A stretch of DNA of 54,435 nt from assembly GCA_030141605.1 (NCBI GenBank), contig JAQGDQ010001218.1:1-54435 (forward strand), given 5' to 3'. A program made the position numbers and the translations under genes. This document shows positions 1-46,968 of the stretch, one piece after another (within the stretch, counting starts at the first letter, position 1; the number at the start of each line of letters is the position of its first letter). The notes beneath the pieces are model-generated. The model had not been told where the DNA came from and searched no databases. It worked only from the letters and a program-made list of their open reading frames with translations. Origin of the DNA: Tubiluchus corallicola (Eukaryota; Animalia; Priapulida).

Positions 1-376
1 CAAATAATGGATTCACCAGTAATGGACCCACAAGTAAGGGAACCACAAGTAATAGACCCACCTGTAATGGACCCACAAGTAATGGACCCACCTGTAATGG
101 ACCCACAAGTAATGGACCTACCAGTAATGGGCATTCCAGTAACGAACAGACCGGTATCACCAAGTAAACTCACCGAGTAACTCACAAGCGCGTTCAAACT
201 AGAAACCTGCAGTGGTTACTCTCTAACAATGAAGAACTGACACTCATTCTCCATTCATGGAAAAGTGTCAAAAGTAACTCAGCGAAGCGTTCATACTAGA
301 TAGCTATTCAACTCGCAGTAACTGTTGGAAAGTTGGTAACTGGTTAAGCTATGAAAACTCACTAATGGAAAAAGTC
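1..376 (+). repeat. Direct duplicate of ~2919-3300 (minisatellite end plus TRPA1 intron 6 sequence)
   Basis: Near-identical to 2919-3300, with a cluster of mismatches/indels around 225-265. Confidence 0.9.
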
Positions 377-900
377 TTAACCATTGTTGCCTTCATCATC
401 ATCATCATCATTATCGCCAATTGCCATTATTGTCACTGTCGCCATTATCATCACCTTTAATTTATCATTATCGTTATCATTGTCATCTTCTTGACGTCAT
501 TTGATATCGTAAATTTTTGATGAAACTTTTACTTTTCGTTTGTATCATTTTGTTTTCTTTCTCTTGCAGACGAGATACAATGCTAAGTTATGTAAGAAGT
601 GCTGCAATGGTTTCTATCCCATACATGATGCTTGCAAAAATGCCTCCGGGAAGGTCCTCAAGTTACTCATTGACGAAGGTAGGACCTTCTCTTCCACACG
701 ACGTTTTTGTTGCTAACCTGCGTGTTGAACTAGATTAGATTAGATTTAGATTAGATCAGATTAGATTATTTTATATCAACTCATCATCATAAATTGGATT
801 AGTTTACAATTCCTTACACAATTTAAATGCATTAACTCTAACCCTAACCCCAACCCAACCTTAACCCTAACCCAACCTTAACCCTAACCCCAACCTTAAC
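371..900 (+). pseudogene. Inverted duplicate of ~6330-6903, including an orphan copy of TRPA1 exon 5 (~570-678) and telomere-like repeats
   Basis: ORFs 517..738(+) and 6536..6757(-) encode identical peptides; the flanking sequences are reverse complements. Confidence 0.85.
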
Positions 901-1933: not shown

Positions 1934-2122
1934 CTTTTCTAGCAAGTACTTGACAATCTCTGTATGATCATACATAGCAGCGTGATGCAGTGGTATCATC
2001 TGTTGAATGTCCAGTGTTCCAATGACCTTTGGCACACGGTCAGCTTGTGCAGTAAACATCATTTCTATAATGTCAAGTGATCCTTGAGCACAGGCTAAGT
2101 GTACGGGGGTAGATTCATCGTG
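1934..2122 (-). CDS. TRPA1: TRPA1 coding exon 7 (HDESTPVHLACAQGSLDII...PLHHAAMYDHTEIVKYLLEK)
   Basis: TTTTCACAG| acceptor, AAG|GTGTGA donor, 189 nt; QQHDxSTPVHLACAQG is characteristic of invertebrate TRPA1. Later exons were not found in 1-1933. Confidence 0.94.
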
Positions 2123-2265
2123 CTGTGAAAATAATGCAAGAAACGTGTTAGTAATAAATAATGACACCAGATGGCAGTGCATAGATGTTTAACGCACGGC
2201 TAGTAGCATTGGTAGCATATAGAGACGTTCTGGCAATGCTGAATTCTGCAATGTTAGTAGTGAAC

Positions 2266-3050
2266 CCACCGGTAATGGACCCACCGGTAATAGATCCACC
2301 AGTAATTGACCCACCAGCAGTGGATCCATCAGTAATGGATCCATCCACAAGTAGTGGACCCACCAAATAAGTACCAACTGCAATAACCCAGCCAGTAATG
2401 GACCCGGCCACTTGTAATAGAGCTAGCAGTAATGCTTACACCAGTAATGGACCCACCAGTAATGGATCCACAAGTAATGGATCCACCTGCAATGGACCCA
2501 CAAGTAATGGATCCACCTGTAATTGACCCACAAGTAATGGATCCACCTGTAATAGACACACAAGTAATGGATTCACAAGAACCAACCCACAAATAATGGA
2601 TTCACCAGTAATGGACACACAAGTAATGGAACCACAAGTAATGGATCCACCTGTAATAGACACACAAGTAATGGATTGACCAGTAATGGACCCACAAATA
2701 ATGGATTGACCAGTAATGGACCCACAAGTAATGGATTCACCAGTAATGGACCCACAAGTAATGGAACACAAGTAATGGATCCACCTGTAATAGACACACA
2801 AGTAATGGATCCACCTGTAATAGACACACAAGTAATGGATCCACCTGTAATAGACACACAAGTAATGGATCCACCTGTAATAGACACACAAGTAATGGAT
2901 CTACCTGTAATAGACACACAAATAATGGATTCACCAGTAATGGACCCACAAGTAAGGGAACCACAAGTAATAGACCCACCTGTAATGGACCCACAAGTAA
3001 TGGACCCACCTGTAATGGACCCACAAGTAATGGACCTACCAGTAATGGGC
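2266..3050. repeat. 15-bp-based minisatellite (GTAATGGACCCACCA/CAA variants) in TRPA1 intron 6
   Basis: Visible tandem units with 30-bp dimers; explains the GSITG/VMDPP ORFs. Confidence 0.95.
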
Positions 3051-3363
3051 ATTCCAGTAACGAACAGACCGGTATCACCAAGTAAACTCACCGAGTAACT
3101 CACAAGCGCGTTCAAACTAGAAACCTGCAGTGGTTACTCTCTAACAGAAAGTGTGAACTGACACTCTGTTCTCCATTCACAGCGACAAGTGTCAAAAGTA
3201 ACTCAGCGAAGCGTTCATACTAGATAGCTAATCAACTCGCAGTAACTGTTGGAAAGTTGGTAACTGGTTAAGCTATGAAAACTCACTAATGGAAAAAGTC
3301 GTAATCACACCTTTAGCAATATTTGTATAAAACTATTTGTGTTGGTTAAGCGTGCACGTGTAC

Positions 3364-3509
3364 CTGTTGGGCATCAATGAATGCTCCATTCTCTAAGAGT
3401 AATCTTACAGCTGTTCTGTCACCCCCATTCACAGCGGAATGTAATGGCATATTCTTCTCCTTATCCAGGAATGTTAGTATGTGCTCACGTGAGTAACCAA
3501 GTTTCTCAG
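3364..3509 (-). CDS. TRPA1: TRPA1 coding exon 6 (AEKLGYSREHILTFLDKEKNMPLHSAVNGGDRTAVRLLLENGAFIDAQQ)
   Basis: TGTTTTTCAG| acceptor, CAG|GTACAC donor, 146 nt, phase 1->0; PLHSAVxGGD motif. Confidence 0.93.
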
Positions 3510-6197
3510 CTGAAAAACAACATCATTGAAGAGCGTTAGTATGTGCTCACGTGAGTAACCAAGTTTCGCAGCTGAAAACCAACATCATTGAAGAACGTTA
3601 GTATGTGCTCACGTGAGTAACCAAGTTTCTCAGCTGAAAAACAACATCATTGAAGAATGTTAGTATGTGCTCACGTGAGTAACCAAGTTTCTCAGCTGAA
3701 AGACAACATCATTCAAGAATGTTAGTATGTGCTCACGTGAGTAACCAAGTTTCTCAGCTGAAAAACAACATCATTGAAGAGCGTTAGTATGTGCTCACGT
3801 GAGTAACCAAGTTTCTCAGCTGAAAGACAACATCATTGAAGAATGTTAGTATGTTCTCACGTGAGTAACCAAGTTTCTCAGCTGAAAGACAACATCATTC
3901 AAGAATGTTAGTATGTGCTCACGTGAGTAACCAAGTTTCTTAGCTGAAAAACAACATCATTGAAGAATGTTAGTATGTGCTGACGTGAGTAACCAAGTTT
4001 CTCAGCTGAAAAACAACATCATTGAAGAATGTTAGTATGTTCTCACGTGAGTAACCAAGTTTCTCAGCTGAAAGACAACATCATTGAAGAATGTTAGTAT
4101 GTGCTGACGTGAGTAACCAAGTTTCTCACCTGAAAAACAACATCATTGAAGAATGTTAGTATGTGCTCACGTGAGTAACCAAGTTTCTTAGCTGAAAAAC
4201 AACATCATTGAAGAATGTTAGTATGTGCTCACGTGAGTAACCAAGTTTCTCAGCTGAAAAACAACATCATTGAAGAATGTTAGTATGTACTCACGTGAGT
4301 AACCAAGTTTCTCAGCTGAAAGACAACATCATTGAAGAATGTTAGTATGTGCTCACGTGAGTAACCAAGTTTCTCAGCTGAAAAACAACATCATTGAAGA
4401 ATGTTAGTATGTGCTCACGTGAGTAACCAAGTTTCTTAGCTGAAAAACAACATCATTGAAGAATGTTAGTATGTGCTCACGTGAGTAACCAAGTTTCTCA
4501 GCTGAAAGACAACATCATTGAAGAATGTTAGTATGTGCTCACGTGAGTAACCAAGTTTCTCAGCTGAAAAACAACATCATTGAAGAATGTTAGTATGTGC
4601 TCACGTGAGTAACCAAGTTTCTCAGCTGAAAAACAACATCATTGAAGAATGTTAGTATGTGCTCACGTGAGTAACCAAGTTTCTCAGCTGAAAGACAACA
4701 TCATTGAAGAATGTTAGTATGTGCTCACGTGAGTAACCAAGTTTCTCAGCTGAAAAACAACATCATTGAAGAATGTTAGTATGTGCTCACGTGAGTAACC
4801 AAGTTTCTCAGCTGAAAAACAACATCATTGAAGAATGTTAGTATGTGCTCACGTGAGTAACCAAGTTTCTCAGCTGAAAGACAACATCATTGAAGAATGT
4901 TAGTATGTGCTCACGTGAGTAACCAAGTTTCTCATGACAACATCATTGAAGAATGTTAGTATGTGCTCACGTGAGTAACCAAGTTTCTCAGCTGAAAAAC
5001 AACATCATTGAAGAATGTTAGTATGTGCTCACGTGAGTAACCAAGTTTCTCAGCTGAAAAACAACATCATTGAAGAATGTTAGTATGTGCTCACGTGAGT
5101 AACCAAGTTTCTCAGCTGAAAGACAACATCATTGAAGAATGTTAGTATGTGCTCACGTGAGTAACCAAGTTTCTCAGCTGAAAAACAACATCATTGAAGA
5201 ATGTTAGTATGTGCTCACGTGAGTAACCAAGTTTCTCAGCTGAAAAACAACGTCATTGAAGAATGTTAGTATGTGCTCACGTGAGTAACCAAGTTTCTCA
5301 GCTGAAAAACAACATCATTGAAGAATGTTAGTATGTGCTCACGTGAGTAACCAAGTTTCTCAGCTGAAAAACAACATCATTGAAGAATGTTAGTATGTGC
5401 TCACGTGAGTAACCAAGTTTCTCAGCTGAAAAACAACATCATTGAAGAATGTTAGTATGTGCTCACGTGAGTAACCGTTTCTCAGCTGAAAAACAACTCA
5501 TTGAAGAAGTTAGTATGTGCTCACGTGAGTAACCAAGTTTCTCAGCTGAAAACAACGTCATTGAAGAATGTTAGTATGTGCTCACGTGAGTAACCAAGTT
5601 TCTCAGCTGAAAAACAACGTCATTGAAGAATGTTAGTATGTGCTCACGTGAGTAACCAAGTTTCTCAGCTGAAAAACAACGTCATTGAAGAATGTTAGTA
5701 TGTGCTCACGTGAGTAACCAAGTTTCTCGCTGAAAAACAACGTCATTGAAGAACGTTAGTATGTGCTCACGTGAGTAACCGAGTTTCTCAGCTGAACAAC
5801 AACGTCATTGAAGAATGTTAGTATGTGCTCACGTGAGTAACCAAGTTTCTCAGCTGAAAAACAACGTCATTGAAGAACGTTAGTATGTGCTCACGTGAGT
5901 AACCGAGTTTCTCAGCTGAACAACAACGTCATTGAAGAATGTTAGTATGTGCTCACGTGAGTAACCAAGTTTCTCAGCTGAAAAACAACGTCATTGAAGA
6001 ACGTTAGTATGTGCTCACGTGAGTAACCGAGTTTCTCAGCTGAACAACAACGTCATTGAAGAATGTTAGTATGTGCTCACGTGAGTAACCAAGTTTCTCA
6101 GCTGAAAAACAACGTCATTGAAGAACGTTAGTATGTGCTCACGTGAGTAACCGAGTTTCTCAGCTGAACAACAACGTCATTGAAGAATGTTAGTATG
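3469..6197. repeat. 62-bp tandem array (~44 units) spanning the intron 5/exon 6 junction of TRPA1
   Basis: Period 62 (gtgctcacgt at 3481, 3543, 3605...). Unit = 21 nt of intron end plus the first 41 nt of exon 6. Confidence 0.97.
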
Positions 6198-6440
6198 AGG
6201 GTTGTGGTTAGAGTTAAGGTTGGGTTAGGGTTAAGGTTGGGTTGGGGTTAGGGTTAAGGTTGGGTTGGGGCTAGGATTAGGATCAGGATTAAGATTAGGG
6301 TTGTGGTTAGGGTTAAGGTTGGGTTAGGGTTAAGGTTGGGTTAGGGTTAAGGTTGGGTTGGGGTTAGGGTTAAGGTTGGGTTGGGGTTAGGGTTAAGGTT
6401 GGGTTAGGGTTAAGGTTGGGTTGGGGTTAGGGTTAGAGTT
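6198..6440 (+). repeat. Degenerate TTAGGG/TTGGG/TTAAGG telomere-like repeat (inverted copy at ~835-900)
   Basis: Runs such as GGGTTAGGGTTAAGGTTGGGTTGGGG. Confidence 0.85.
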
Positions 6441-6595
6441 AATGCATTTAAATTGTGTAAGGAATTGTAAACTAATCCAATTTATGATGATGAGTTGATA
6501 TAAAATAATCTAATCTGATCTAATCTAAATCTAATCTAATCTAGTTCAACACGCAGGTTAGCCACAAAAACGTCGTGTGGAAGAGAAGGTCCTAC

Positions 6596-6704
6596 CTTCG
6601 TCAATGAGTAACTTGAGGACCTTCCCGGAGGCATTTTTGCAAGCATCATGTATGGGATAGAAACCATTGCAGCACTTCTTACATAACTTAGCATTGTATC
6701 TCGT
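6596..6704 (-). CDS. TRPA1: TRPA1 coding exon 5 (TRYNAKLCKKCCNGFYPIHDACKNASGKVLKLLIDE)
   Basis: TTTCTCTTGCAG| acceptor, G|GTAGGA donor, 109 nt, phase 0->1; CxNGxYPIHxAxKNAS motif of TRPA1. Confidence 0.93.
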
Positions 6705-7176
6705 CTGCAAGAGAAAGAAAACAAAATGATACAAACGAAAAGTAAAAGTTTCATCAAAAATTTACGATATCAAATGACGTCAAGAAGATGACAATGATAA
6801 CGATAATGATGAATTAAAGGTGATGATAATGGCGACAGTGACAATAATGGCAATTGGCGATAATGATGATGATGATGATGAAGGCAACAATGGTTAAGAC
6901 TTTAATATTACTGAATCTTTTGATGGAAACAATGATGATGTGAGATACTGTGATGACGACGATGATGATGATCACGATCATGCTGGTGATGGCGACAAAA
7001 TCAACAAAGAGAAGAACAGAAATTTGCTGAATATCATATGCAGCATTTGCATGATATACAACTATACCAAATCTTGAATATTTAGTGAAAATTACTTGCC
7101 ACGAAACCTGCTGATAATGCAAAATGTTATTAACTTTTGAAAATGCAGCATCAATTCCAATAATGATTACCATAGT

Positions 7177-8743
7177 AAACTAGTTTATATGAAACAACAC
7201 TCATCAAAGAGACTTTTCAGTACTAAATCTTACCAAGACTACAGCACAGTCATAGTCGTCCTTGATGGAGGCATAGTGCAATGCATGAACTAGCTTGCAT
7301 GAAACAACACTCATCAAAGTGACCTTTCAGTTGTCAAACTTACCAAGACTACAGCACAGTCATAGTCGTCCTTGATAGCGGCATAGTGCAATGCATGAAC
7401 TAGCTTGCATGAAACAACACTCATCAAAGAGACTTTTCAGTACTAAAACTTACCAAGACTACAGCACAGTCATAGTCATCCTTGATAGCGGCATAGTGAA
7501 GTGCACGAACTAGCTTGCATGAAACAACACTCATCAAAGAGACTTTTCAGTACTAAAACTTACCAAGACTACAGCACAGTCATAGTCATCCTTGATGGCG
7601 GCATAGTGAAGTGCACGAACTAGCTTGCATGAAACAACACTCATCAAAGAGACCTTTCAGTACTAAAACTTACCAAAACTACAGCACAGTCATAGTCATC
7701 CTTGATAGCGGCATAGTGAAGTGCACGAACTAGCTTGCATGAAACAACACTCATCAAAGAGACTTTTCAGTACTAAAACTTACCAAGACTACAGCACAGT
7801 CATAGTCATCCTTGATGGCGGCATAGTGAAGTGCACGAACTAGCTTGCATGAAACAACACTCATCAAAGAGACTTTTCAGTACTAGAACTTACCAAGACT
7901 ACAGCACAGTCATAGTCATCCTTGATAGCGGCATAGTGAAGTGCACGAACTAGCTTGCATGAAACAACACTCATCAAAGAGACCTTTCAGTACTAGAACT
8001 TACCAAGACTACAGCACAGTCATAGTCATCCTTGATGGCGGCATAGTGAAGTGCACGAACTAGCTTGTATGAAACAACACTCATCAAAGAGACCTTTCAG
8101 TATTAAAACTTACCAAAACTACAGCACAGTCATAGTCATCCTTGATGGCGGCATAGTGAAGTGCACGAACTAGCTTGTATGAAACAACACTCATCAAAGA
8201 GACTTTTCAGTACTAAAACTTACCAAGACTACAGCACAGTCATAGTCATCCTTGATAGCGGCATAGTGAAGTGCACAAACTAGCTTGCATGAAACAACAC
8301 TCATCAAAGAGACTTTTCAGTACTAAAACTTACCAAGATTACAGCACAGGCATAGTCATCCTTGATGGCGGCATAGTGAAGTGCACGAACCAGCTTGCGT
8401 GAAACAACACTCATCAAAGAGACCTTTCAGTATTAAAACTTACCAAAACTACAGCACAGGCATAGTCATCCTTGATGGCAGCATAGTGAAGTGCACGAAC
8501 TAGCTTGTATGAAACAACACTCATCAAAGAGACCTTTCAGTACTAAAACTTACCAAGACTACAGCACAGTCATAGTCGTCCTTGATGGCGGCATAGTGAA
8601 GTGCACGAACTGGCTTGCATGAAACAACACTCATCAAAGAGACCTTTCAACAACACTCATCAAAGAGACTTTTCAGTACTAGAACTTACCAAGACTACAG
8701 CACAGTCATAGTCATCCTTGATGGCGGCATAGTGCAATGCAGT
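7177..8743. repeat. 110-bp tandem array (~14 units) spanning the exon 4/intron 4 junction of TRPA1
   Basis: gaaacaacac at 7191, 7301, 7411 ... 8621. Each unit carries the last ~17 codons of exon 4 and its donor (GTAAGT in most units). Confidence 0.97.
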
Positions 8744-8797
8744 TCTCCCATTTTTCCCACCCAAGTTCACGTCAACGTGAGGGTGTTTTAGCAACGC
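8690..8797 (-). CDS. TRPA1: TRPA1 coding exon 4 (ALLKHPHVDVNLGGKNGRTALHYAAIKDDYDCAVVL)
   Basis: TTTTAG| acceptor, TTG|GTAAGT donor, 108 nt, phase 0->0; GGxxGRTALHxAAI motif typical of TRPA1. Not in the ORF track. Confidence 0.93.
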
Positions 8798-9759: not shown

Positions 9760-9935
9760 CTCAAGAACACCAGGTTTCCCAAGATCCACTGCAACGTGCA
9801 ACGGCGCCGCGAAGTTGTGGTTAAATTTGTCTGTTTTTGCTCCCCGTAGAATGAGATGGGTGATGGCTTCCAATTGGCCCTTCTCCACGGCAGTGTGAAG
9901 TGGACTGTTGCCAGACAAATCTTCATCATTGATAT
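9760..9935 (-). CDS. TRPA1: TRPA1 coding exon 3 (DINDEDLSGNSPLHTAVEKG...APLHVAVDLGKPGVLE)
   Basis: TTTTTTCCTAG| acceptor, GAG|GTAGTA donor, 176 nt, phase 1->0; two ankyrin PLH motifs. Confidence 0.93.
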
Positions 9936-12530: not shown

Positions 12531-14594
12531 AATTTACCTGCTCCTGTGGCTAATACAAAGTCTACAACTCTGACTCAGTCCTATTTTGTTTCTGATATTT
12601 CACTTATCTCTAATTCTAGAAAAAGATAAAATTACAGAATTTACCTGCTCCTGTGGCTAATACAAAGTCTACAACTCTGACTCAGTCCTATTTTGTTTCT
12701 CATATTTCACTTATCTCTAGTTCTAGAAAAAGATAAAATTACAGAATTTACCTGCTCCTGTGGCTAATACAAAGTCTACAACTCTGACTCAGTCCTATTT
12801 TGTTTCTCATATTTCACTTATCTCTAGTTCTAGAAAAAGATAAAATTACAAAATTTACCTGCTCCTGTGGCTAATACAAAGTCTACAACTCTGACTCAGT
12901 CCTATTTTGTTTCTGATATTTCACTTATCTCTAGTTCTAGAAAAAGATAAAATTACAAAATTTACCTGCTCCTGTGGCTAATACAAAGTCTACAACTCTG
13001 ACTCAGTCCTATTTTGTTTCTGATATTTCACTTATCTCTAGTTCTAGAAAAAGACAAAATTCCAGAATTTACCTGCTCCTGTGGCTAATACAAAGTCTAC
13101 AACTCTGACTCAGTCCTATTTTGTTTCTGATATTTCACTTATCTCTAATTCTAGAAAAAGACAAAATTCCAGAATTTACCTGCTACTGTGGCTAATACAA
13201 AGTCTACAACTCTGACTCAGTCCTATTTTGTTTCTCATATTTCACTTATCTCTAGTTCTAGAATAAGTTAAAATTACAAAATTTACCTGCTCCTGTGGCT
13301 AATACAAAGTCTACAACTCTGACTCAGTCCTATTTTGCTTCTCATATTTCACTTATCTCTAATTCTAGAAAAAGACAAAATTCCAGAATTTACCTGCTCC
13401 TGTGGCTAATACAAAGTCTACAACTCTGACTCAGTCCTATTTTGTTTCTGATATTTCACTTATCTCTAATTCTAGAAAAAGATAAAATTACAGAATTTAC
13501 CTGCTCCTGTGGCTAATACAAAGTCTACAACTCTGACTCAGTCCTATTTTGTTTCTCATATTTCACTTATCTCTAGTTCTAGAAAAAGATAAAATTACAG
13601 AATTTACCTGCTCCTGTGGCTAATACAAAGTCTACAACTCTGACTCAGTCCTATTTTGTTTCTCATATTTCACTTATCTCTAGTTCTAGAAAAAGATAAA
13701 ATTACAAAATTTACCTGCTCCTGTGGCTAATACAAAGTCTACAACTCTGACTCAGTCCTATTTTGTTTCTCATATTTCACTTATCTCTAGTTCTAGAAAA
13801 AGATAAAATTACAAAATTTACCTGCTCCTGTGGCTAATACAAAGTCTACAACTCTGACTCAGTCCTATTTTGTTTCTGATATTTCACTTATCTCTAGTTC
13901 TAGAAAAAGATAAAATTACAAAATTTACCTGCTCCTGTGGCTAATACAAAGTCTACAACTCTGACTCAGTCCTATTTTGTTTCTCATATTTCACTTATCT
14001 CTAGTTCTAGAAAAAGACAAAATTCCAGAATTTACCTGCTCCTGTGGCTAATACAAAGTCTACAACTCTGACTCAGTCCTATTTTGTTTCTCATATTTCA
14101 CTTATCTCTAGTTCTAGAAAAAGATAAAATTACAGAATTTACCTGCTCCTGTGGCTAATACAAAGTCTACAACTCTGACTCAGTCCTATTTTGTTTCTCA
14201 TATTTCACTTATCTCTAGTTCTAGAAAAAGATAAAATTCCAGAATTCACCTGCTCCTGTGGCTAATACAAAGTCTACAACTCTGACTCAGTCCTATTTTG
14301 TTTCTCATATTTCACTTATCTCTAGTTCTAGAAAAAGATAAAATTACAGAATTTACCTGCTCCTGTGGCTAATACAAACTCTACAACTCTGACTCAGTCC
14401 TATTTTGTTTCTCATATTTCACTTATCTCTAGTTCTAGAAAAAGATAAAATTACAGAATTTACCTGCTCCTGTGGCTAATACAAAGTCTACAACTCTGAC
14501 TCAGTCCTATTTTGTTTCTCATATTTCACTTATCTCTAGTTCTAGAAAAAGATAAAATTACAGAATTTACCTGCTCCTGTGGCTAATACAAAGT
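12531..14594. repeat. 107-bp tandem array (20 donor copies) spanning the exon 2/intron 2 junction of TRPA1
   Basis: atttacctgc at 12532, 12639 ... 14565 (19 x 107). Each unit carries the last ~25 nt of exon 2 and its GTAAAT donor. Confidence 0.97.
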
Positions 14595-14727
14595 CAATAA
14601 TCTGCAAGCGACTTTTCGATGCAGCATAATGTAAAACATTCTGTCCCCTCTTGTCTCGAATTTCCAGTGGTTTTGAATGTGACCGCCATATTGTCTCAAA
14701 TTCTGCAATGTTACCTTTGCTTGCGAC
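14571..14727 (-). CDS. TRPA1: TRPA1 coding exon 2 (VASKGNIAEF...QNVLHYAASKSRLQIIDFVLATGA)
   Basis: TTGCAG| acceptor, G|GTAAAT donor, 157 nt, phase 0->1, ankyrin motif; joins exon 3 as GA-D-INDED. Confidence 0.92.
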
Positions 14728-15293: not shown

Positions 15294-15881
15294 GGGTTAA
15301 GAAGGAAAACCTGTTAGTACTGATCAACTCTTTCACCTTTAATTGGCGTAATTCCACTAATTAATTGCAAACTAATCAGTTAAACTTACATTGGCTTTGT
15401 AATTACTTTAAAGGGAAATGAGGTTGCTAAAATTGATTCGACGTTGATGTGACAAACTGATGTACTAATCACTGAAAACAGGTAGTCATAACTGGCTGGT
15501 GATCAGTCATCTCAGACGTGGTAAATTCATTAGGTAATGCGTATTTTAAAATATATTTATACGACGTATTTCGAATTACTGTAAATACAATACATTCATT
15601 CAGTTAGCTGTGTAAATAAATGAACTCATATGTTTACAAATATAAAATGTGCCATTAACTAACATACACATACTATATTGAATTAGATTTTACATCACAG
15701 AATCACAATTTATTCGCAACATAAATATTGCGTAGAATGTCATGAATTTGCAGATTGTCTAAAAGGGAAAAATCTGTTTAAGTCATTTAAAGCATCTTTA
15801 AAAAATTAAAGATGGAGGCTTTGAGTTCACGTAATCTCTCTATCTTTTAATGTCCAAGTATTCACGTAATGATCAGTATAT

Positions 15882-16491
<610 letters not shown>

Positions 16492-19925: not shown

Positions 19926-20689
19926 AACTTTGGTTTATCTCTCTGGTTTAGAAGTGTTACGACCGACTCAGTAACTTACTTCATCCGACAAATTTTTTGC
20001 TTATTTTCGTTTTTTTACTTTTATGGCAGTTAATTCCACAGGAAAAAACACACACAGCTTGCGAGGGTCCTCGGACTGAATCAAAAACAAATTTTCAAGA
20101 ACTTACACTGAAATATTGCAATAAAACTACTTCACAAATACTTCACAAACACTGTAGTACTGCCTTAGTTTGTGTAACACAGTAGTTGTAGTACTCCAAG
20201 AACTATGGCTACCCTCCTAAAAAAAGCGGGCACACGATGTTAAACTACAGCCTGGTCACCAAGAATTCATGCTGTTAAAGCATGACTGTTAAAGCATGAC
20301 AATTCAATATCCAAGCGGCTGATCTTCAGAAGTCTGGGTCACCCAATCCAATTTACCCTGATTAAGTTGACATACGAAGTTGACATAGTATGATTGTAAG
20401 ATATTGTCTACAACAGTTTAAATAGACATATTGACACATTGGAGGATAAGTGTACACAGCTTACAAACTCAGAGAACATGAAATTCCACTTTACTGGTCA
20501 GAAGTTAATCTGGAAGTGGTGCTGTTAGACTGAAACTTGCTTAGCTGGGTGAATTGCGGCCACAAGGGGGAGGAATTTTGAAATACTGACTTGCCTAGAA
20601 GTAATATGAATCTGTTATCAGACTGTATATGTCAAGCTGACTTATGTGAGACGACTAATGATCTGTTAGGTTGCACTTCGTGGTAAATT

Positions 20690-21430
20690 CATTTGTCTGT
20701 TCTGTTACGTTTCGCTGCCCTCTCTATTTGTCTGTTCCGTTACATTTACTTGCTAATTTCATTCGTCTGTTCCGTTCCATTTCCTTGCTAATTTTACGTC
20801 TCTGTTCCGTTACATTTCCTTGCTAATCTTACGTGTTTGTTCTGTTACATTTACTTGCTAATTTCATTTATCTGTTCCGTTACATTTACTTGCTAATTTT
20901 ATTCGTCTGTTCTGTTCCATTTACTTGCTAATTTCATTTATCTGTTCCGTTACATTTACTTGCTAGTTTTAGGTGTCTGTTCCGTTACATTTACTTGCTA
21001 ATTTCATTTATCTGTTCCGTTACATTTACTTGCTAATTTTATTCGTCTGTTCTGTTCCATTTACTTGCTAATTTCATTTATCTGTTCCGTTACATTTACT
21101 TGCTAATTTTATTCGTCTGTTCTGTTCCATTTACTTGCTAATTTCATTTATCTGTTCCGTTACATTTACTTGCTAGTTTTAGGTGTCTGTTCTGTTCCAT
21201 TTACTTGCTAATTTCATTTATCTGTTCCGTTACATTTACTTGCTAATTTTATTCGTCTGTTCTGTTCCATTTACTTTCTAATTTCATTTATCTGTTCCGC
21301 TACATTTCCTTGCTAATTTTACGTGTCTGTTCTGTTCCATTTACTTGCTAATTTCATTTATCTGTTCCGTTACATTTACTTGCTAATTTCATTTATCTGT
21401 TCCGTGACATTTCCTTGCTAATTTCATATT
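20690..21430. repeat. 35-bp pyrimidine-rich minisatellite (~21 units)
   Basis: tctgttccgttacatttacttgctaatttcattta repeated with period 35. Confidence 0.93.
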
Positions 21431-24655: not shown

Positions 24656-27435
24656 TACGAATGTCAGGTGTACAGGAATGTCAGGTGTGCACGAATGTCA
24701 GGTGTACACGAATGTCAGGTGTGCACGAGTGTCAGGTGTGCACGAATGTCAGGTGTGCACGAATGCCAGGTGTACACGAATGTCAGGTGTGCAGGAATGT
24801 CAGGTGCACACGAATGTCAGGTGTACACGAATGTCAGGTGTGCACGAATGTAAGGTGTGCAGGAATGTCAGGTGTACACGAATGTCAGGTGTGCGAATGT
24901 CGGTTGTGGTGTGAAATGTCAGGTGTGGAATGTCAGGTTACACGAATGTCAGGTGTGCACGAAGTCAGGTGTGCACGAATGTCAGGTGTACAGAGTCAGG
25001 TGTGAGAAGTCGGTGTGGAAGTCAGGTGCATGTAGTGTGCGAATGTCAGGTGTACACGAATGTCAGGTGTGCAGGAATGTCAGGTGTACACGAATGTCAG
25101 GTGTGCAGGAATGTCAGGTGTACACGAATGTCAGGTGTACACGAATGTCAGGTGTGCACGAATGTCAGGTGTGCACGAATGTAAGGTGTGCAGGAATGTC
25201 AGGTGTACACGAATGTCAGGTGTGCAGGAATGTCAGGTGTACACGAATGTCAGGTGTACACGAATGTCAGGTGTACACGAATGTCAGGTGTACACGAATG
25301 TCAGGTGTACACGAATGTCAGGTGTACAGGAATGTCAGGTGTGCAGGAATGTAAGGTGTGCACGAATGTCAGGTGTGCACGAATGTCAGGTGTGCACGAA
25401 TGTAAGGTGTGCAGGAATGTCAGGTGTGCAGGAATGTCAGGTGTACACGAATGTCAGGTGTGCACGAATGTCAGGTGTACACGAATGTCAGGTGTGCACG
25501 AATGTCACGTGTGCACGAATGTCAGGTGTGCACGAATGTCAGGTGTACACGAATGTCAGGTGTACACGAATGTCAGGTGTGCACGCACGAACGTCAGGTG
25601 TGCACGAATGTCAGGTGTGCACGAATGTCAGGTGTGCACGAATGTCACGTGTGCACGAGTGTCAGGTGTACACGAATGTCAGGTGTGCACCAATGTCAGG
25701 TGTACACGAACGTCAGGTGTGCACGAATGTCAGGTGTACACGAATGTCAGGTGTGCACGAATGTCAGGTGTACACGAATGTCAGGTGTACACGAATGTCA
25801 GGTGTGCACGCACGAACGTCAGGTGTGCACGAATGTCAGGTGTGCACGAATGTCAGGTGTGCACGAATGTCAGGTGTGCACGGATGTCAGGTGTACACGA
25901 ATGTCAGGTGTGCACGAATGTTAGGTGTACACGAATGTCAGGTGTACACGAACGTCAGGTGTGCACGAATGTCAGGTGTACATGAATGTCAGGTGTACAC
26001 GAACGTCAGGTGTACACGAATGTCAGGTGTACACGAATGTCAGGTGTGCACGAGTGTCAGGTGTACACGAATGTCAGGTGTACACGAATGTCAGGTGTGC
26101 ACGAATGTCAGGTGTGCACGAATGTCAGGTGTACACGAATGTCAGGTGTACACGAATGTCAGGTGTGCACGAATGTCAGGTGTACACGAATGTCAGGTGT
26201 GCACGAATGTCAGGTGTGCACGAGTGTCAGGTGTGCACGAATGTCAGGTGTGCACGAATGTCAGGTGTGCACGAATGTCAGGTGTACACGAATGTCAGGT
26301 GTGCACGAATGTCAGGTGTACACGAATGTCAGGTGTGCACGAATGTCAGGTGTGCACGAATGTCAGGTGTACACGAATGTCAGGTGTACACGAACGTCAG
26401 GTGTGCACGAATGTCAGGTGTACACGAATGTCAGGTGTGCACGAATGTCAGGTGTGGACGAATGTCAGGTGTGGACGAATGTCAGGTGTGCACGAATGTC
26501 AGGTGTACACGAATGTCAGGTGTACACGAATGTAAGGTGTGCACGAATGTAAGGTGTGCACGAATGTAAGGTGTACACGAATGTAAGGTGTGCACGAATG
26601 TCAGGTGTACACGAATGTCAGGTGTACACGAATGTCAGGTGTACACGAACGTCAGGTGTGCACGTATGTCAGGTGTACACGAATGTCAGGTGTGGACGAA
26701 TGTCAAGTGTGGACGAATGTCAGGTGTGCACGAATGTCAGGTGTATAAAAATGTCAGGTGTACACGAATGTCAGGTGCACACGAATGTCAGGTGTGCACG
26801 AATGTAAGGTGTACACGAATGTCAGGTGCACACGAATGTAAGGTGTACACGAATGTCAGGTGCACACGAATGTCAGGTGTACACGAATGTCAGGTGTGCA
26901 CGAGTGTCAGGTGTGCACGAATGTCAGGTGTACACGAATGTCAGGTGTACACGAATGTCAGGTGTACACGAATGTCAGGTGTACACGAATGTCAGGTGTA
27001 CACGAATGTCAGGTGTGCACGAATGTCAGGTGTACACGAATGTCAGGTGTACACGAATGTCAGGTGTACACGAACGTCAGGTGTACACGAATGTCAGGTG
27101 TACACGAACGTCAGGTGTACACGAATGTCAGGTGTACACGAATGTCAGGTGTACACGAATGTCAGGTGTGCACGAATGTCAGGTGTGCACGTATGTCAGG
27201 TGTGCACGAATGTCAGGTGTGCACGAATGTCAGGTGTGCACGAATGTCAGGTGTACACGAACGTTAGGTGTACACGAATGTCAGGTGTACACGAATGTCA
27301 GGTGTACACGAATGTCAGGTGTACACGAATGTCAGGTGTACACGAATGTCAGGTGTACACGAATGTCAGGTGTGCACGAATGTCAGGTGTACACGAATGT
27401 CAGGTGTACACGAATGTCAGGTGTGCACCAATGTA
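24656..27435. repeat. 17-bp satellite GAATGTCAGGTGT(A/G)CAC, ~160 copies
   Basis: Homogeneous tandem array; all HECQVCTNVRC ORFs derive from it. Confidence 0.98.
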
Positions 27436-38015: not shown

Positions 38016-38407
38016 CTAGCTTTCGTCTTCTCTGCTGTTATCGTTGTCGCATACTTCTTGTTCATCATCCGTCTCCTTGTTATCACTATTTACCTGTTCG
38101 TCTGATTCTTCACTTTCGTTCACATTACGATCTAGCTCATTCATCACATGTTCACATAACCCTTTTTGAATTCCTTCTTTCTCGTTGTCGCTTTCCTCTA
38201 TTTTCGTCAAATCTTTTTCATCTTTGTTGCTAGTGATCAAATCTGTCTCTTCCCTTTCCTTTGCGTCCAATTCGGTGATATTTTCTGCAACTGTCTCTGT
38301 GTTTGTCGATTCATGCTCCTCTACAGGCTCACATACAGACTTATCTTCAACATCTGAATATTCAGACTCTTCGTCTGTGGTATTGGTCTTCGTAATGCGA
38401 TTCTCTC
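38016..38407 (-). CDS. PRKRIP1: PRKRIP1 terminal exon, acidic low-complexity tail (total protein ~272 aa)
   Basis: ACTGCAG| acceptor in phase 1, open for 130 codons to TAG at 38016. Confidence 0.8.
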
Positions 38408-38779
38408 CTGCAGTAATTAAAAAAATAGCAAAATTTAAAAAAAATAGATTTTCGTGTGTAAAACAAAATCTGCATAATGCCACTGCAAAACAATGGGCAA
38501 AATGTATTATTCATACATGCATTATATATACATTACATTATTCAGACATGTATTATACATGCAGAGACACAGGACTGAACAAAGGCAATTGCCTTGAAAT
38601 TACAAAACAAACATTTTAATTTACTTTTATTAAAGGGCTACTTGAAAACAACAGCATTGAGCGCTTCCCTATACAAAATTGGCAAAATGCCAAAGTTCCA
38701 ACATAAAAATTTCTTTTTTGCACCTCATTGACGCTATAGTCACTTACAAGGCCGTTCAAATTGCCAAGAGTGATGAGTC

Positions 38780-39275
38780 CAGGGATGAGAATGACAAATT
38801 GCAAAAAACTCTGAAACAGGCCAGGGGTTTGGGGGCCGCGTAGCCCCTCATGGGGTTTCAAGGGGGCGAAGCAACAAATTGCAATTATGTGACCATAGAG
38901 AGCCTCTAATTGGACTTAAAATATGAGTTACCCTGTTTCATGCATAATTTAAAATACCCAACTATCAAGGATACATGATACCTAATTGTCTCAAAAACGC
39001 CTATGGGCCGCTCCTATGCAAAAGTATATAAAAACTGTCTGCAATTGACTCAAATAACTCCGCACAATTGATTCTATATTTTTATACATAGAGATATACA
39101 CGTGATTACACTGATGTACGTGATGTATACAAAGTGACGGCCTGCCAACTAGCGGTCAGCTTGTGAAATAATGTACGGGCCCGTAAAAATTTTCTCAACG
39201 AATTTACGCGATTTACAAAAATGGCACTACTGGTCTTCCAAAAACTCGGAATTCCGCGGAAAATTCTCATCCCTG
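38780..39275. mobile_element. MITE with CAGGGATGAGAAT TIRs (hAT-like ends)
   Basis: 13-bp perfect inverted termini; no clean TSD. Confidence 0.55.
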
Positions 39276-40276
39276 CGAGTCTGTTCTATAGCGGTTAATG
39301 AAATGTTGTAATCTATTTTTCCTCTTAGTATCTCTCAGCATTTAAAACAAAATTAAAATCACTAATATTAACCAGATATGAAATACCATCACACCAGTAC
39401 GACGACATACACACTAATTCAGAATTCATATATCCATGACCATATTAATTAAATCATAGTTTTTTCATTTTTTGCGCATAGTTGTAAATACGTTTGATTT
39501 TATTCGTCGTTACTTTCCATTACTGCACAGTAGTGTAGATTGCACTGACGCATTTGAATTTAGCAGTGTAAGTTTTTATTAACTAACACTGATTGATCAT
39601 CTCTCTAAAGTTTTTGTCAGTGATTATCAATGTATCTTAATGGCAAATAAAGATTATTATATACCGTATATGCTCGCATATAAGCCGAATTTAGAACTAT
39701 AAAATACAATACTGAAATCAGGGGGTCGGCTTATATGCGCATGAAACAAAATGAACACAAGGACAGACACTAATGCCAATTTTCCAGCCACACATTTTCA
39801 TCGCTATCTGACTCTTTATTTGGTTGTGTGTCACCAGTGGTGTATTGGAGGGGGATCGTGGGGGATCGCCGTCCACCCACTTTTTTTTTTTAGAAAAAAT
39901 TCACATTTCAATAAATGTCTGCTTTTTGTATTCATTAGATAAAAATACCCAATTAGTTAATACCCAATTAATAAAATGTGACAAAAAGGGATCAATTTTG
40001 TTGATTGGGTATGGAGTAAAATTAGACAAGTTGATGGTCGGCTTATATATGGGTTTTTGCAAAAACTGGCCATTTTAAAGCAGTTTTAGGGGGTCGGCTT
40101 ATATGCGAGTATATACGGTACGTATATATATATATGTATCATTTATTAGTAACAAAGTGCAAAAGTTTAACACAGAACAGATGGAAGTAAATCTCATTTC
40201 ATCATGTAAAAATACATCATTACTTCATAACCACAAAATTCAGACATTTCAATTTAGCATCGTCTCACTTTTGTAC

Positions 40277-40403
40277 CTTTCAGTTTCTTCGCAGTCATCT
40301 TCTGCTTCTTCTTTAATCTCTTTGCTCGTTTCTTTGCCGTCCGCTCGTCCGCTTTTCTCTGATTTTCTTCCAGTTTTCTGTGATATTCCACGTCCTCTTC
40401 CGA
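40277..40403 (-). CDS. PRKRIP1: PRKRIP1 coding exon 4 (SEEDVEYHRKLEENQRKADERTAKKRAKRLKKKQK...)
   Basis: GTTACAG| acceptor, G|GTACAA donor, 127 nt; conserved EENxxxAxExTAKKRxKR basic coil. Confidence 0.92.
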
Positions 40404-41486
40404 CTGTAACCAATATAATTAATTGTACTTACACTAGCTGCCTCATACAGACACAATAAAAGGAAGGGAAACATCCGAAGACGCCAGCGCAGTTCTCGAG
40501 TCGCAGAAGTACCCCAGGTAGAATTTTAGACATTTTTAGAAGCCTTTTAGCAACCAAAAGTGAAAAAAAAACAAATAAAAATTATTTATTTAATGATAAT
40601 TTTGTCAAACTTTGTAACATATTTGGAATAATTTAGCCACTAGCACTTATCTTTAACATCAGTATAACTATGTCACTTATTTATTAAGATAGCTTAATAG
40701 TTAGACTTAAAGGACAAGAAAAGGGGCACCTGAAGTAGGTTTCACAAAAATCGCCTTGAAAAATTATATTACTTTATAGCAATTTTATGCGTATATCGTA
40801 CTCGCACGGAAAGGAATTTTTGTTTGTTTTCATTTTAAATCTCCCGCAATACTGTTCCAAAGTCGCCATTGCATGACGTCACCTATGCAAAAATGTAAAT
40901 CAGGGGAAGAAAAGGCCATGTTAAATAATATCTCAAAAGACTTTCTGTGCAAATCTATATTACGTAGATTTTCGCTTACCTGCTAGAAAGACTTATGTAA
41001 CTAGAAAAGAAAATTATTAATTATTTAAAATGTTTTCACCAATTGGTAAAATGTCGCTGACTCACCCTCCAGGGTGCACCACTCACTAACCAAAAAACAT
41101 ATTTTTAATCTTATTGACAAAATACAGTAATTTAAAATTTTATTTAGTTAGTGACTTGTGTGCTACGAATGCTCTGATTAGTTTTTCAAACTTTACAAAA
41201 TGTTATCTAAACTTATTTCAAATGACCTATCGTGAAAATGGCTGCGTCTAACGGTCATCGCGGGAGTTTAAATTTACATGTTTTATACAGCGTGACTGCC
41301 GATTGAAGTCCCGCATGCAAAAAGGCAATATGTAAGCGATATAAAGTGTCAAAACGAATTTTTTAAAGCTTTATGTTTATGAAGGGTTTTCTTGTGCTTT
41401 AACAAGAGCACACTTGTGCGCAAATTTTAATTCTGACAATAATACACTAGACGAATATAACAGTTATAATACAAATTTCCAATTTC

Positions 41487-42280
41487 CTTTATCAAAAAGA
41501 ACACCTATTAACTTTATCAAAAAGAACACCTATTAACTTTATCAAAAACAACACCTATTAACTTTATTATCAAAAACAACACCTATTAACTTTATCAAAA
41601 ACAACACCTATTAACTTTATCAAAAGCAACACCTATTAACTTTATCAAAAACAACACCTATAAACTTTATCAAAAACAACACCAATTAACTTTATCAAAA
41701 AGAACACCTATTAACTGTATCAAAAACAACACCTATTAACTTTATCAAAAGCAACACCTATTAACTTTATCAAAAGCAGCACCTATTAACTTTATCAAAA
41801 GCAGCACCTATTAACTTTATCAAAAACAACACCTGTTAACTTTATCAAAAACAACACATGTTAACTTTATCAAAAACAACACATGTTAACTTTATCAAAA
41901 ACAACACATGTTAACTTTATCAAAAACAATACCAGTTAACTTTATCAAAAACAATACCAGTTAACTTTATCAAAAACAATACCAGTTAACTTTATCAAAA
42001 ACAATACCAGTTAACTTTATCAAAAACAATACCAGTTAACTTTATCAAAAACAACACCTGTTAACTTTATCAAAAACAACACCTATTAACTTTATCAAAA
42101 ACAACACCTATTAACTTTATCAAAAACAACACATGTTAACTTTATCAAAAACAACACCTATTAACTTGATCAAAAACAATACCAGTTAACTTTATCAAAA
42201 ACAACACCTATAAACTTTCTCAAAAACAACACATGTTAACTTTATCAAAAACAACACCTATAAACTTTATCAAAAACATC
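41487..42280. repeat. 25-bp minisatellite (AACTTTATCAAAAACAACACCTATT, ~31 units) in PRKRIP1 intron 3
   Basis: Direct inspection. Confidence 0.93.
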
Positions 42281-42371
42281 ATTGTCGTTAACAGAAACAC
42301 GATAAATGAATCTCGTTCATTATAAAATTGAATGAACCAACATTGTTAAATGCCCACTGCTGATCAAGTAC

Positions 42372-42472
42372 CTGTTCAGCTTGATCGTTTATCCACTTCT
42401 GCCTCATTTGTTCTCGTCGTCTGATGTGCCTGTACACGTGGAATTCTCCACTTCCAGCTCCAGCACTGGATC
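42372..42472 (-). CDS. PRKRIP1: PRKRIP1 coding exon 3 ([34 protein letters not shown])
   Basis: Signature [15 protein letters not shown] (DUF1168); TTACAG| acceptor, CAG|GTACTT donor, phase 1->0. Confidence 0.95.
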
Positions 42473-42884
42473 CTGTAATAAAAGTTGTGACTAATATGTA
42501 ACTAAGATGAAAAACAACAGACGGCATTAGAAATTACACGTTGCACAGAGCCACAAGTCAATTACAAATTGACTTCTAATGTCACGTATCAGACATTCAT
42601 CGGAATGACAGCATCACTGATGATCCATCACTCATTCAGTTTAATTGATAAATGTGTTTAAGTCCGAGGACGATCAGCATCGTCTGGCTACTTATTTAAA
42701 AAGCGGTTTGGTTCCTGTTATGGATAATGATATTAAACATTTCGTTTGTACTATACTGCAAAGGCAAGTGACAGGTAGGCCATTGAACTGATTCGTGATC
42801 GCCACGCTGTTTGTTGAACAAAAGGAGCGATGATCCGCAGAGATCCATGAGATTTCAGTGAGAATTTTTTACCCCATGATGTGG

Positions 42885-43275
42885 CACAATGGTTGGCATC
42901 CTTCTTTCGCGGAAGACAATGGAGTGTGCGCCAAGAGAGTCAGTTATTGATCACATTGATGGAGCTGCAGCGTCGACTGTGGCTGAGCAGTGAGATCCTT
43001 GAACGTCTCCAGGGCGTACACGCCTGGGCAAGGTGTATGGAAATCCTGAGTTGCCCAGACGTCTCCAGTTTGGTCACTTGACCTCCTCCGCCCTCTAGCC
43101 GTTGGCTGCTTGTGCAGCTCCTCCGCCTAGTGTCGAGATACAGTGTGGGCATCCCGCAAGTCTACAGCACCTGGTACTCCTAGGCGGTCACCCATCCAAG
43201 TACTAACCAGGCTCTACGTTGCTTAACTTCGGTGAACAGACGAGAACTGGTGTTTTCAATGTGATTTGGCACAAC
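42885..43275 (-). mobile_element. Second copy of the 5S-headed SINE, in PRKRIP1 intron 2
   Basis: The reverse complement matches the 5S head and body (gcgggatgcccacactgtatctcgacactaggcggag...ggcgcacactccattgtcttcc). Confidence 0.8.
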
Positions 43276-43991
43276 ATAGAGTCAACAATTTCACACGAAG
43301 TTCTCGCTTTGAAAAAATTCAGCGTGAAAGTACAGTAAACTCACAATTGAATTTTTTTCATCTGAAGTTGTGGAAAATTATCACTGGACCTGCAGCTGAG
43401 TTGATGCATAGTGACGACTTATTTACTCTTTAATACTTTTTTATAATTGTCTAATTTGCATCTTTTTGTGCCTCCTTAACATGGTGTTACCTAATAGAAG
43501 CGATGATAGTTATCCACTACTATAGCGGTGTTCATTATCTACTAAACTATATCCTATGTTTACTTTTCATGATGCAGACGTCTCTCAAGGGTTTCTGCTG
43601 CCCAATATCGAAATTTTGCCCAACGACGTTAAAGGGTGACGATGTTCGTCCTTCAAAATCGAAGGTGACCATAGTGACAGGGATAAAGGGTCAGTTTGAG
43701 GGGTTGTCATTCCTTTGATGAGCTCGAAGGTGACTGACTAGGCCAATTCTGGCCTGGAAACTTCTTTGGCATTTGGCACAGGTGAGGCTGGGCGTTTGGA
43801 CCTGTTGTTGGGCAGTGTCACATGCCTTGCGTCTCCTGCGCTTCTCCTCTGCCTCCTCAATTCTCTATACACCTCAACTTTCACCCCCCCAACAACACCC
43901 AAAAACACCAACACAAACAACCACACACCACACACCCAAACACCAAACAAATTGCCTAACAATTAAAGAAATTACAGAATATTATACTCAC

Positions 43992-44070
43992 CCATTACAT
44001 TTCTAACAAAGTCTGGTGCATTAGGGAATTTTTTGCTTCTAGGTGCCTCTGGTATATCCACAGGTATGTG
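43992..44070 (-). CDS. PRKRIP1: PRKRIP1 coding exon 2 (HIPVDIPEAPRSKKFPNAPDFVRNVMG)
   Basis: CTTCTTTCAG| acceptor, G|GTGAGT donor, 79 nt; PxFVRxVMG motif. Confidence 0.93.
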
Positions 44071-44885
44071 CTGAAAGAAGAATTCACTTCTCTTAGTAAA
44101 TAATAGCCTTTTAAGAAAAAGTGACAATCACAACACCATCAAGACAAACAATTTTGATGAACTCATTTAAGCATGCTAATTAGCAATAGAAGCAGTTACT
44201 GAAAAAAAAACTGTAAGATTAGTTTCTGATTTCCATGGTGCTACTGAAAAAAAAGACATAGACAACTGCGCATGTAGTGCAAGGTTCGTAAATTGATTTC
44301 TCTCAGTCACCATGCAATATTAATGAATTCTGTGAAAGTCATGTATGTGGTTGTAGTTGAACACTTGGTAGAAAAAGAATGAACACTATATTACATATCT
44401 GCACAAAAACTGAAACACGTTTATTATACTAAATAGACATATGTAAAATGACTGCTACACTGCACACTGAGGACCAGAGTGTCCTGCACTGATCACGAAG
44501 AATTAGACAGTGGCTAGAAGTAAAATCCAGCCAGTATATATAGGTAGAGGACTATGCAAAACTTGGCTTCACAAATACCATTACAGTAAAAATAGGGAAA
44601 GATCCAGTGAGTATGCATATTCACTGGACCGAACAATTGTACTAGGGGTGAGTTTAGCTAGAAAATGTAAAGTGGTTAGTTAATAGATGGCAGCACCTAA
44701 ATATATACAGTTACAACTTTCACAAATTCCTTAAATATTGAAAAGATAAATATTGTCAAAGTGATTTACTTACAACGAGTTTAAATTCTAAAGTGAAATG
44801 CCATTCATAAGCTTCTCATTTACCATCGCAAGCAAAATCTCTTAAACACTGAATGAACTAGGGTAAGAACGCCTCTTTTACTCAC

Positions 44886-45005
44886 TGGCTTCTCCATCAA
44901 TTTATCCAATTTCATTCGCTGGAGCTCAACTGAAGTTTTTGGATATGGCTTCTTCTCTTTTGGCTCGATTCTGAAGATGTCTGGCTTCTTCTCTTTTGGC
45001 TCCAT
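44886..45005 (-). CDS. PRKRIP1: PRKRIP1 coding exon 1 (MEPKEKKP...PKTSVELQRMKLDKLMEKP)
   Basis: QRxKLxKLMxxP motif; CCA|GTGAGT donor in phase 0. Confidence 0.88.
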
Positions 45006-45109
45006 TCTGAAGATGTCTGCTTAATTTTAGGTACCTAAATTAGGAAAACAGAGTAATGTTATTGCCTAATGGTCTATCATTGTAGATTACTCAGCGATAC
45101 AGCGCTGTT

Positions 45110-46628: not shown

Positions 46629-46968
46629 CAGGGCCTATTTCAGGGGGTGGGGTGGGGATACTTCCCCAGGGCCTCCCCCTCCAGGGGGGCCTCGCGCCAA
46701 GGTAACATTTTTTTTGCTTTATGCGAACATACTGCCTCCTCTCTCGCTCTCTTGCTGCAAGCACGCCGTTTGCCAATATTGACAAGTATTAAGGACTGGT
46801 CTTGAGAATAAAGCAGTTTTTCTTTCAATTGTTATTTCCTTTAACAACTGTATAACTCCATATTTTCTCTTCGAAAATGCTTCTCCGGCGTTCTAGCAGT
46901 TCGAAAAATTTTTGGGGGCCTCACACGCCCCACTTCCCTGGGCCTCGCTTAGGCTGAAATAGGCCCTG
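46629..46968. mobile_element. hAT-type MITE; related inverted sequence ~34800-35260 and a fragment at ~48216
   Basis: 15-bp perfect TIR cagggcctatttcag; perfect 8-bp TSD GGGACATG (46621, 46969). Confidence 0.92.

What the first reader, a model, noticed from the sequence alone, without database searches (positions are those of the whole stretch)
3469..6197. 62-bp unit contains a perfect TACTAAC branch point, a pyrimidine tract with CAG, and a GTGAGC donor
On the - strand each unit reads ...TGTTTTTCAG|CTGAGAAACTTGGTTACTCAC|GTGAGCACATACTAACATTCTTCAATGATGT... The exon-6 codons ATA CTA ACA supply TACTAAC ~26 nt before the next unit's AG, so ~43 nearly complete 3' splice sites sit in tandem, and the authentic acceptor's best branch point comes from duplicated exon sequence. 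Using an upstream AG without re-splicing frameshifts into a TAA (NMD), whereas using GTGAGC gives a 21-nt in-frame exon (x-EKLGYS). The inter-unit intron would be only 41 nt, which may be too short and so could force one-of-many or skip-neighbour inclusion.
Basis: partly seen in the sequence, partly recalled or inferred. Interest (0 to 1): 0.8.

Follow-up and report, generated by a model that had tools for sequence, protein, structure and literature searches.

The report
Splice-acceptor "mirage" repeat in TRPA1
In an invertebrate gene for the irritant-sensing channel TRPA1, a 62-base piece spanning an intron end and exon start is repeated 44 times, leaving 42 look-alike splice acceptors that would all break the reading frame; this is likely a tolerated repeat of a kind already known from lancelets, not a splicing switch.

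Summary
The sequence claims hold. The array has 44 units, each with TACTAAC 27 nt before the acceptor end; 43 end in CAG and 39 carry GTGAGC. It is one duplication across the intron/exon border of a TRPA1 gene, amplified. Only the last AG (3510-3511) gives an open frame. The +21-nt micro-exon is in frame, but 0 of 59 homologs have an insertion above 1 residue there, the donor is the weakest of seven by predicted U1 pairing, and a working donor would also define 83- and 145-nt poison exons. Two more arrays in this gene copy donor sites. This is a known class: lancelet 'mirages' (acceptor-side in BflGb6) and human F7-type repeats; this scan also noted the class in other genomes. No RNA covered the junction, so leakage is untested. 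One small new lead: most units are predicted to fold their branch point into a hairpin, while two letters in the last unit free it (rank 2-5 of 44). Verdict: new, large member of a known kind; interest low.

The parts
3469..6197 (-). 62-bp minisatellite, 44 units: about 21 nt of intron end plus the first 41 nt of the exon
3535..3541 (-). TACTAAC serving the real acceptor (branch A at 3536, -27); followed by two letters found in only one other unit, predicted to keep it out of a hairpin
   Evidence: use as branch point inferred
3510..3511 (-). Last AG, the only acceptor that gives an open frame
3364..3509 (-).
3483..3488 (-). Cryptic donor-like GTGAGC inside the real exon, source of the copies in the units
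3571..3604 (-). Penultimate acceptor; its T tract is interrupted by a G unique to this unit
6198..6441 (-). Degenerate (TAACCC)n tract directly against the array's 5' edge
6596..6704 (-). Upstream TRPA1 exon, whose donor must pair with one of the 43 acceptors
1934..2122 (-). Downstream TRPA1 exon; its intron has TACTAAC at -26
7178..8649 (-). 110-bp array (13.4 copies) repeating the donor of exon 8690-8797; 13 of 14 donors lead to a stop
8690..8797 (-). TRPA1 exon
9760..9935 (-). TRPA1 exon
12531..14595 (-). 107-bp array (19.3 copies) repeating the donor of exon 14571-14727; 18 of 19 matched donors lead to a stop
14571..14727 (-). TRPA1 exon

Best explanation
The array is a tandem amplification of the intron/exon border of a TRPA1 gene (a 'mirage' minisatellite), likely tolerated because the spliceosome likely uses the last AG and removes the 42 decoys as intron. 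Shown: unit anatomy, frame outcomes, two donor-side arrays in the same gene. Inferred: origin by one slippage-type duplication, then expansion by unequal exchange (alternating and 4-unit variant patterns, more divergent edges). Inferred: the last AG wins because only it is followed by the whole exon and lies nearest its donor (exon definition). Predicted: a helping bias, in that most decoy branch points sit in a 6-bp hairpin while the real one is open, and the nearest competitor has a broken T tract. Inferred: rare mis-spliced transcripts carry a stop and would be removed by NMD. TACTAAC at -27 is either a survivor effect (the duplication was viable because exon codons supplied a branch point; about 60%) or the intron's own branch point acting as the matching seed (about 40%).
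For: Six GT-AG exons give an 885-nt open frame only through the last AG. 58 of 60 TRPA1 segments (window plus 59 homologs, mostly insects, kept from 107 hits) have the same length across this junction, 2 have +1. The translation P0002 matches from the exon start and stops matching at the exon end, consistent with the same exon borders in a relative. Units differ from their consensus by 1.2 nt on average; 13 variable columns show no significant sparing of signals. Lancelet BflGb6 has the same acceptor-side design, and RT-PCR there and Adh3 data suggest normal splicing (PMC3087553, passages; PMC3902484, passage). Predicted branch-point accessibility of the real acceptor ranks 2, 2, 2, 3, 5 of 44 in five fold settings (0.30-0.56 against medians 0.03-0.14) and falls to 0.02-0.15 when given the majority letters. 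A contig of run X2 joins this exon to the next at exactly 3364, supporting the gene model.
Against: No RNA spans the upstream-exon/array junction. The X2 contig is about 91% alike, so it may be a relative or paralog without the array, and X2 is only guessed to be RNA. Decoy AGs 208 and 270 nt from the exon's donor are within ordinary exon size. In human IFI6 and CBS donor arrays two pseudo-sites are used as well, and engineered globin duplications used the proximal copy, with an opposite result from another group (PMC1557585, introduction and passages). GTGAGC matches 7 of 9 consensus positions, as good as real donors here (5-8 of 9). The real AG itself is predicted no more accessible than decoys (0.010 and 0.003), and the branch A alone ranks only 5-10 of 44. 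Folds are at 37 C.
Confidence: 0.76

Rival explanations
1. The array is leaky: a sizeable share of transcripts use nearby decoy AGs or 83/145-nt pseudo-exons, are destroyed by NMD, and copy number tunes TRPA1 dose.
For: 42 near-identical acceptors with TACTAAC at -27; human IFI6 and CBS arrays leak (PMC1557585); GTGAGC is 7 of 9 consensus.
Against: Lancelet mirages are reported not to disturb splicing; no selection signal on unit motifs; most decoy branch points are predicted paired.
Confidence: 0.12
2. One reading: units act as 21-nt in-frame micro-exons, picked one at a time or skipping neighbours because of the 41-nt spacing, giving a TRPA1 with 7 extra residues.
For: The 21-nt exon is in frame; the 15-nt donor-to-branch distance would bar adjacent joining, while a skip-one intron is 103 nt.
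Against: 0 of 59 homologs have more than +1 residue here; units are near-identical, so choice gives no diversity; weakest predicted U1 pairing of seven donors; longer out-of-frame pseudo-exons would compete; 5 of 44 units lack GTGAGC.
Confidence: 0.04
3. This gene copy is damaged or the region is partly mis-assembled, so the array is neither tolerated nor functional, or its copy number is wrong.
For: Window 371-895 is an inverted copy of 6379-6903 with 2 differences in 525, joined to a copy of the next intron; three single-unit deletions cluster at 5459-5762 and look like read errors; the downstream exons are outside the window.
Against: All six exons are open with GT-AG borders; the units carry ordered variant patterns that simple assembly errors would not make.
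Confidence: 0.08

Closest known systems
Lancelet 'mirage' minisatellites: BflGb6 (acceptor side), BflGb9, Adh3, troponin C, PGBD5 (PMC3087553 and PMC3902484; seen: passages)
   Same: Tandem units made of an intron 3' end plus the start of the next exon; most keep the AG; homogenised centre and more divergent edges; several mirages in one lineage.
   Different: 44 units against 3 and 6 in BflGb6; 62 nt against 150-160 nt; each unit also holds TACTAAC at -27 and a donor-like GTGAGC; three arrays in one gene; no RNA test here.
Human donor-side minisatellites F7 IVS7 (37 bp), IFI6/6-16, CBS, LMNB2, PDGF (PMC1557585; seen: abstract, introduction, passages)
   Same: First or last monomer spans the exon border, so identical pseudo-sites follow; mostly silent. 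The 107-bp and 110-bp arrays here have this design.
   Different: The 62-bp array is the acceptor-side mirror: the real site is the last to be transcribed, so the 5'-to-3' scanning shown for F7 donors cannot explain the choice.
Sterically enforced mutually exclusive exons (alpha-tropomyosin; cited in PMC6692369, passage)
   Same: A donor too close to the next branch point for both to be used together.
   Different: There one of two diverged exons must be included; here the frame is complete without any unit and the units are near-identical.
TRPA1 channels (Owenia P0003; PDB 7YKR and others)
   Same: Six exons align in order to the ankyrin region, 40-58% identity per exon to P0003; 42-51% to 59 homologs.
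   Different: Only the N-terminal ankyrin exons are in the window.

Membership tests
Mirage minisatellite | Tandem units span an exon-intron boundary | tested here: met
   About 21 nt intron end plus 41 nt exon start, 44 units
Mirage minisatellite | Many units keep the AG or GT signal | tested here: met
   43 of 44 end in CAG
Mirage minisatellite | Concerted evolution, edges less homogenised | tested here: met
   Central units mostly 0-1 differences from the commonest unit, edge units mostly 2-3; no tree built
Mirage minisatellite | Length differs between alleles or cells | not testable with these tools
   One sequence only; no genome held
Mirage minisatellite | Regular splicing is not disturbed | tested here: inconclusive
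   No contig reached the junction
Sterically exclusive alternative exon cluster | Donor to next branch point under about 50 nt | tested here: met
   15 nt; threshold from human work
Sterically exclusive alternative exon cluster | One of several diverged exons is needed to complete the protein | tested here: not met
   Frame and homolog length are complete with no unit; units near-identical
Regulated poison exon (AS-NMD) | Inclusion gives a premature stop | tested here: met
   42 of 42 upstream AGs and the 83, 145, 207, 269-nt pseudo-exons
Regulated poison exon (AS-NMD) | Inclusion seen in RNA, regulated and conserved | not testable with these tools
   No RNA holder listed; no related genome
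TRPA1 | Ankyrin array collinear with TRPA1 | tested here: met
TRPA1 | Six-helix channel domain downstream | not testable with these tools
   Lies beyond the window start

The most novel reading that the evidence does not exclude
The array is self-silencing: exon-derived letters fold each decoy's branch point into a hairpin and neighbouring decoy acceptors pair through a palindrome at the AG, while two letters in the last unit leave the real branch point open. RNA structure would then pick 1 of 43 acceptors, and copy number could tune how much TRPA1 message is lost to NMD. With three junction arrays in one gene, tandem amplification may also be seeded preferentially at splice junctions, here by a branch-point/codon match.
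Probability: 0.13. Interest if true: 0.62.

Novelty: new member of a known kind. Interest (0 to 1): 0.27.

Why it matters
As a tolerated mirage it is ordinary, though large for the acceptor side. It is still a natural test of how a 3' splice site is chosen: the correct AG is transcribed 2.7 kb after the first of 42 near-identical rivals, so first-come scanning predicts failure and exon definition or branch-point accessibility predicts success. How mirages arise is stated to be unclear (PMC3087553); three in one gene offers material for that question.

Tried and rejected
No genome is held for this window, so no genome-wide count or intron-length distribution. No RNA holder listed; this is no evidence on expression. 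Runs X1 and X2 were laid on 3060-3545 and 3330-3545, stretches holding one unit, not on the whole array; neither run covered 3435-3545, which is uninformative. Selection on unit signals: not significant. The idea that the real AG is more open than decoys: rejected. Unit dimers and tetramers fold better than arrays of a shuffled unit (z -2.0 and -2.4; 10 of 300 shuffles as low, monomer z -0.7), but this pairing would cover the real AG too. The unit as a dispersed element: no match beyond chance level outside the arrays in this window. The inverted copy at 371-895 as a source of the ancestral intron end: no unit sequence there. Junction enrichment: 3 of 9 non-exonic arrays (period 20 or more, 3 or more copies) sit on junctions, P 0.003-0.011 for an assumed 21-33 junctions, but without the index array 2 of 8 gives P 0.03-0.07; arrays under 3 copies, periods under 20, microsatellite-derived rows and the exonic Thr-rich arrays were dropped before counting; suggestive only. 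Literature: searches for cis-competition of duplicated acceptors and for branch-point microhomology as a minisatellite seed found nothing; one search listed four reviews or surveys that I did not read; some searches gave listings only, apart from PMC2812944 (passages). The Reed and Maniatis 1986 result that a truncated duplicate exon loses to the full exon is recalled, not seen. The original Adh3 mirage paper was not seen. Supplementary alignments of PMC3087553 were not opened; they could show whether BflGb6 units also hold a branch point.

Full report
Observation. Tandem Repeats Finder gives a 62-bp array at 3469-6197, 44.2 copies, 96% matches. On the - strand it splits into 44 units plus the exon's own TACTAAC; 40 units are 62 nt and 4 carry deletions. 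43 of 44 end in a T tract plus CAG and 39 of 44 hold GTGAGC. The branch A lies 27 nt from the intron end, 15 nt after the GTGAGC donor G, and the inter-unit gap is 41 nt. The copies are one event: about 21 nt of intron end and 41 nt of exon start, amplified.

Host gene. Six GT-AG exons (14571-14727, 9760-9935, 8690-8797, 6596-6704, 3364-3509, 1934-2122) give an 885-nt open frame that aligns in order to Owenia P0003, itself a TRPA1 by its match to PDB 7YKR and related entries. The exon after the array is an ankyrin repeat. A 192-nt contig of run X2 (RNA is a guess; 6 differences in 71 letters) leaves this exon at exactly 3364 and its loose end matches the start of the next exon, but it stops at 3434 and does not reach the array junction. 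Unchecked notes on other pieces of this genome call the animal a likely priapulid; I did not test that.

What the signals could do. All 42 upstream AGs give a stop; only 3510-3511 is open. The 21-nt micro-exon is in frame, but pseudo-exons of 83, 145, 207 and 269 nt from the same signals all give stops, so an active GTGAGC would mainly threaten the gene. That donor matches 7 of 9 consensus positions (real donors 5-8) but has the weakest predicted U1 duplex, -4.7 against -5.2 to -9.2 kcal/mol; 3 of 38 exonic GT sites and 27 sites in 8,183 nt of intron reach 7 of 9, so such sites are common. Adjacent units cannot plausibly be joined: about 50 nt from donor to branch point is needed in human extracts and 35 nt abolishes assembly (PMC6692369, passages); the limit in this animal is unknown. 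Of 120 long proteins, 107 hit the window model and 59 were kept (40% identity or more over 250 residues or more); with the window, 58 of 60 have a 46-residue segment across this junction, 2 have 47, none has +7. Most are insects and so not independent. Thirteen of 62 columns vary among the 40 full units; sparing of TACTAAC has P = 0.17.

Where TACTAAC comes from. It is rare here (6 in 43,855 nt outside masked arrays), and the exon encodes it in a conserved stretch. Two origins fit. Either the duplication displaced the old branch point and survived because the exon copy supplied a new one, or the intron already had TACTAAC at -27 and its match to the exon 62 nt downstream seeded the slippage. 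For the second: the array's 5' edge starts at the TACTAAC-bearing 13-mer, the next intron has TACTAAC at -26, and the last unit differs from the exon just after the motif. For the first: the 5'-edge copy matches the exon over all 13 letters, and a (TAACCC)n tract abuts it, as if older intron was lost.

How the last AG likely wins. Only it is followed by the whole exon and is nearest that exon's donor (inference from exon definition; the supporting 1986 duplication experiment is recalled and was not found). Folding adds a predicted bias: in the commonest unit the branch A lies in a 6-bp hairpin. The real branch point ranks 2, 2, 2, 3 and 5 of 44 for accessibility in five settings and loses this when given the majority letters; the penultimate unit has a low value and a G in its T tract. 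Against this: one other unit shares those letters, the branch A alone ranks 5-10, the real AG is not more open than the decoys, and edge units diverge anyway. It is a lead.

Context. Two more arrays in the gene copy donor sites: 107 bp x 19.3 and 110 bp x 13.4; in each only the first donor keeps the frame (1 of 19 matched, 1 of 14). Three of nine long non-exonic arrays in the window lie on junctions (P 0.003-0.011; 2 of 8 and P 0.03-0.07 without the index array).

Comparison with what is known. Notes of this scan pointed me to 'mirages', and I checked the papers. PMC3087553 (passages) describes tandem duplications of the intron 3' end plus exon 5' part in lancelet BflGb6 (3 and 6 units of 150-160 bp), Adh3 units of 10-72 bp, AG/GT kept in many units, regular splicing apparently unaffected, mechanism unclear. 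PMC3902484 (passage) adds troponin C and PGBD5. PMC1557585 (abstract, introduction, passages) covers human donor-side arrays: only the first site used in F7, LMNB2 and PDGF, two pseudo-sites also used in IFI6 and CBS, and it notes conflicting results for engineered duplications. PMC2812944 (passages) reports that repeats at exon-intron borders can make alternative splicing in human duplicated genes. The array meets the three mirage features I could test, and fails the key feature of an exclusive-exon cluster. The scan has noted similar acceptor arrays in other genomes, one also of 62 bases (unchecked).

Verdict. Real, accurately described, and a large acceptor-side member of a known repeat class, most likely tolerated (0.76). 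Leaky NMD tuning 0.12, damaged or mis-assembled 0.08, functional micro-exon 0.04. No RNA tested the junction. Interest 0.27.

Noticed in passing
window 1-895: 371-895 is an inverted copy of 6379-6903, including exon 6596-6704 (2 differences in 525), joined through a 6-nt microhomology to a copy of 2919-3296 (14 differences in 380 columns, mostly in one patch). Template-switch rearrangement or assembly chimera.
   Followed up: partly
window 7178-8649 and 12531-14595: Two donor-side mirage arrays in the same TRPA1 gene; only the first donor of each keeps the frame.
   Followed up: yes
window 3469-6197: Each unit has two short palindromes, one centred on the AG and one on the GTGAG; two units can form a predicted 18-bp helix joining neighbouring acceptors.
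   Followed up: partly
window 5763-6196: The 5' end of the array alternates two unit types, a 124-bp higher-order repeat; one type has a change pair that restores the branch-point hairpin.
   Followed up: partly
window about 38016-50540, - strand: A second gene with DUF1168 (PF06658) exons at 42372-42473 and 43993-44070; PRKRIP1-like is my recalled label. Its 25-bp intronic array (41487-42278) does not span a junction.
   Followed up: partly
window 51936-52859, - strand: Thr/Pro-rich mucin-like open frame built from a 75-bp repeat, probably an exon of a third gene.
   Followed up: no
window 24657-27434, 20684-21427, 2256-3048: Further minisatellites (17 bp x 163, 35 bp x 21, 15 bp x 52); the window is rich in young tandem arrays.
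   Followed up: no
window 15860-16242 and 43637-43864: Two 95%-identical copies of what looks like a LINE 3' fragment (label recalled).
   Followed up: no
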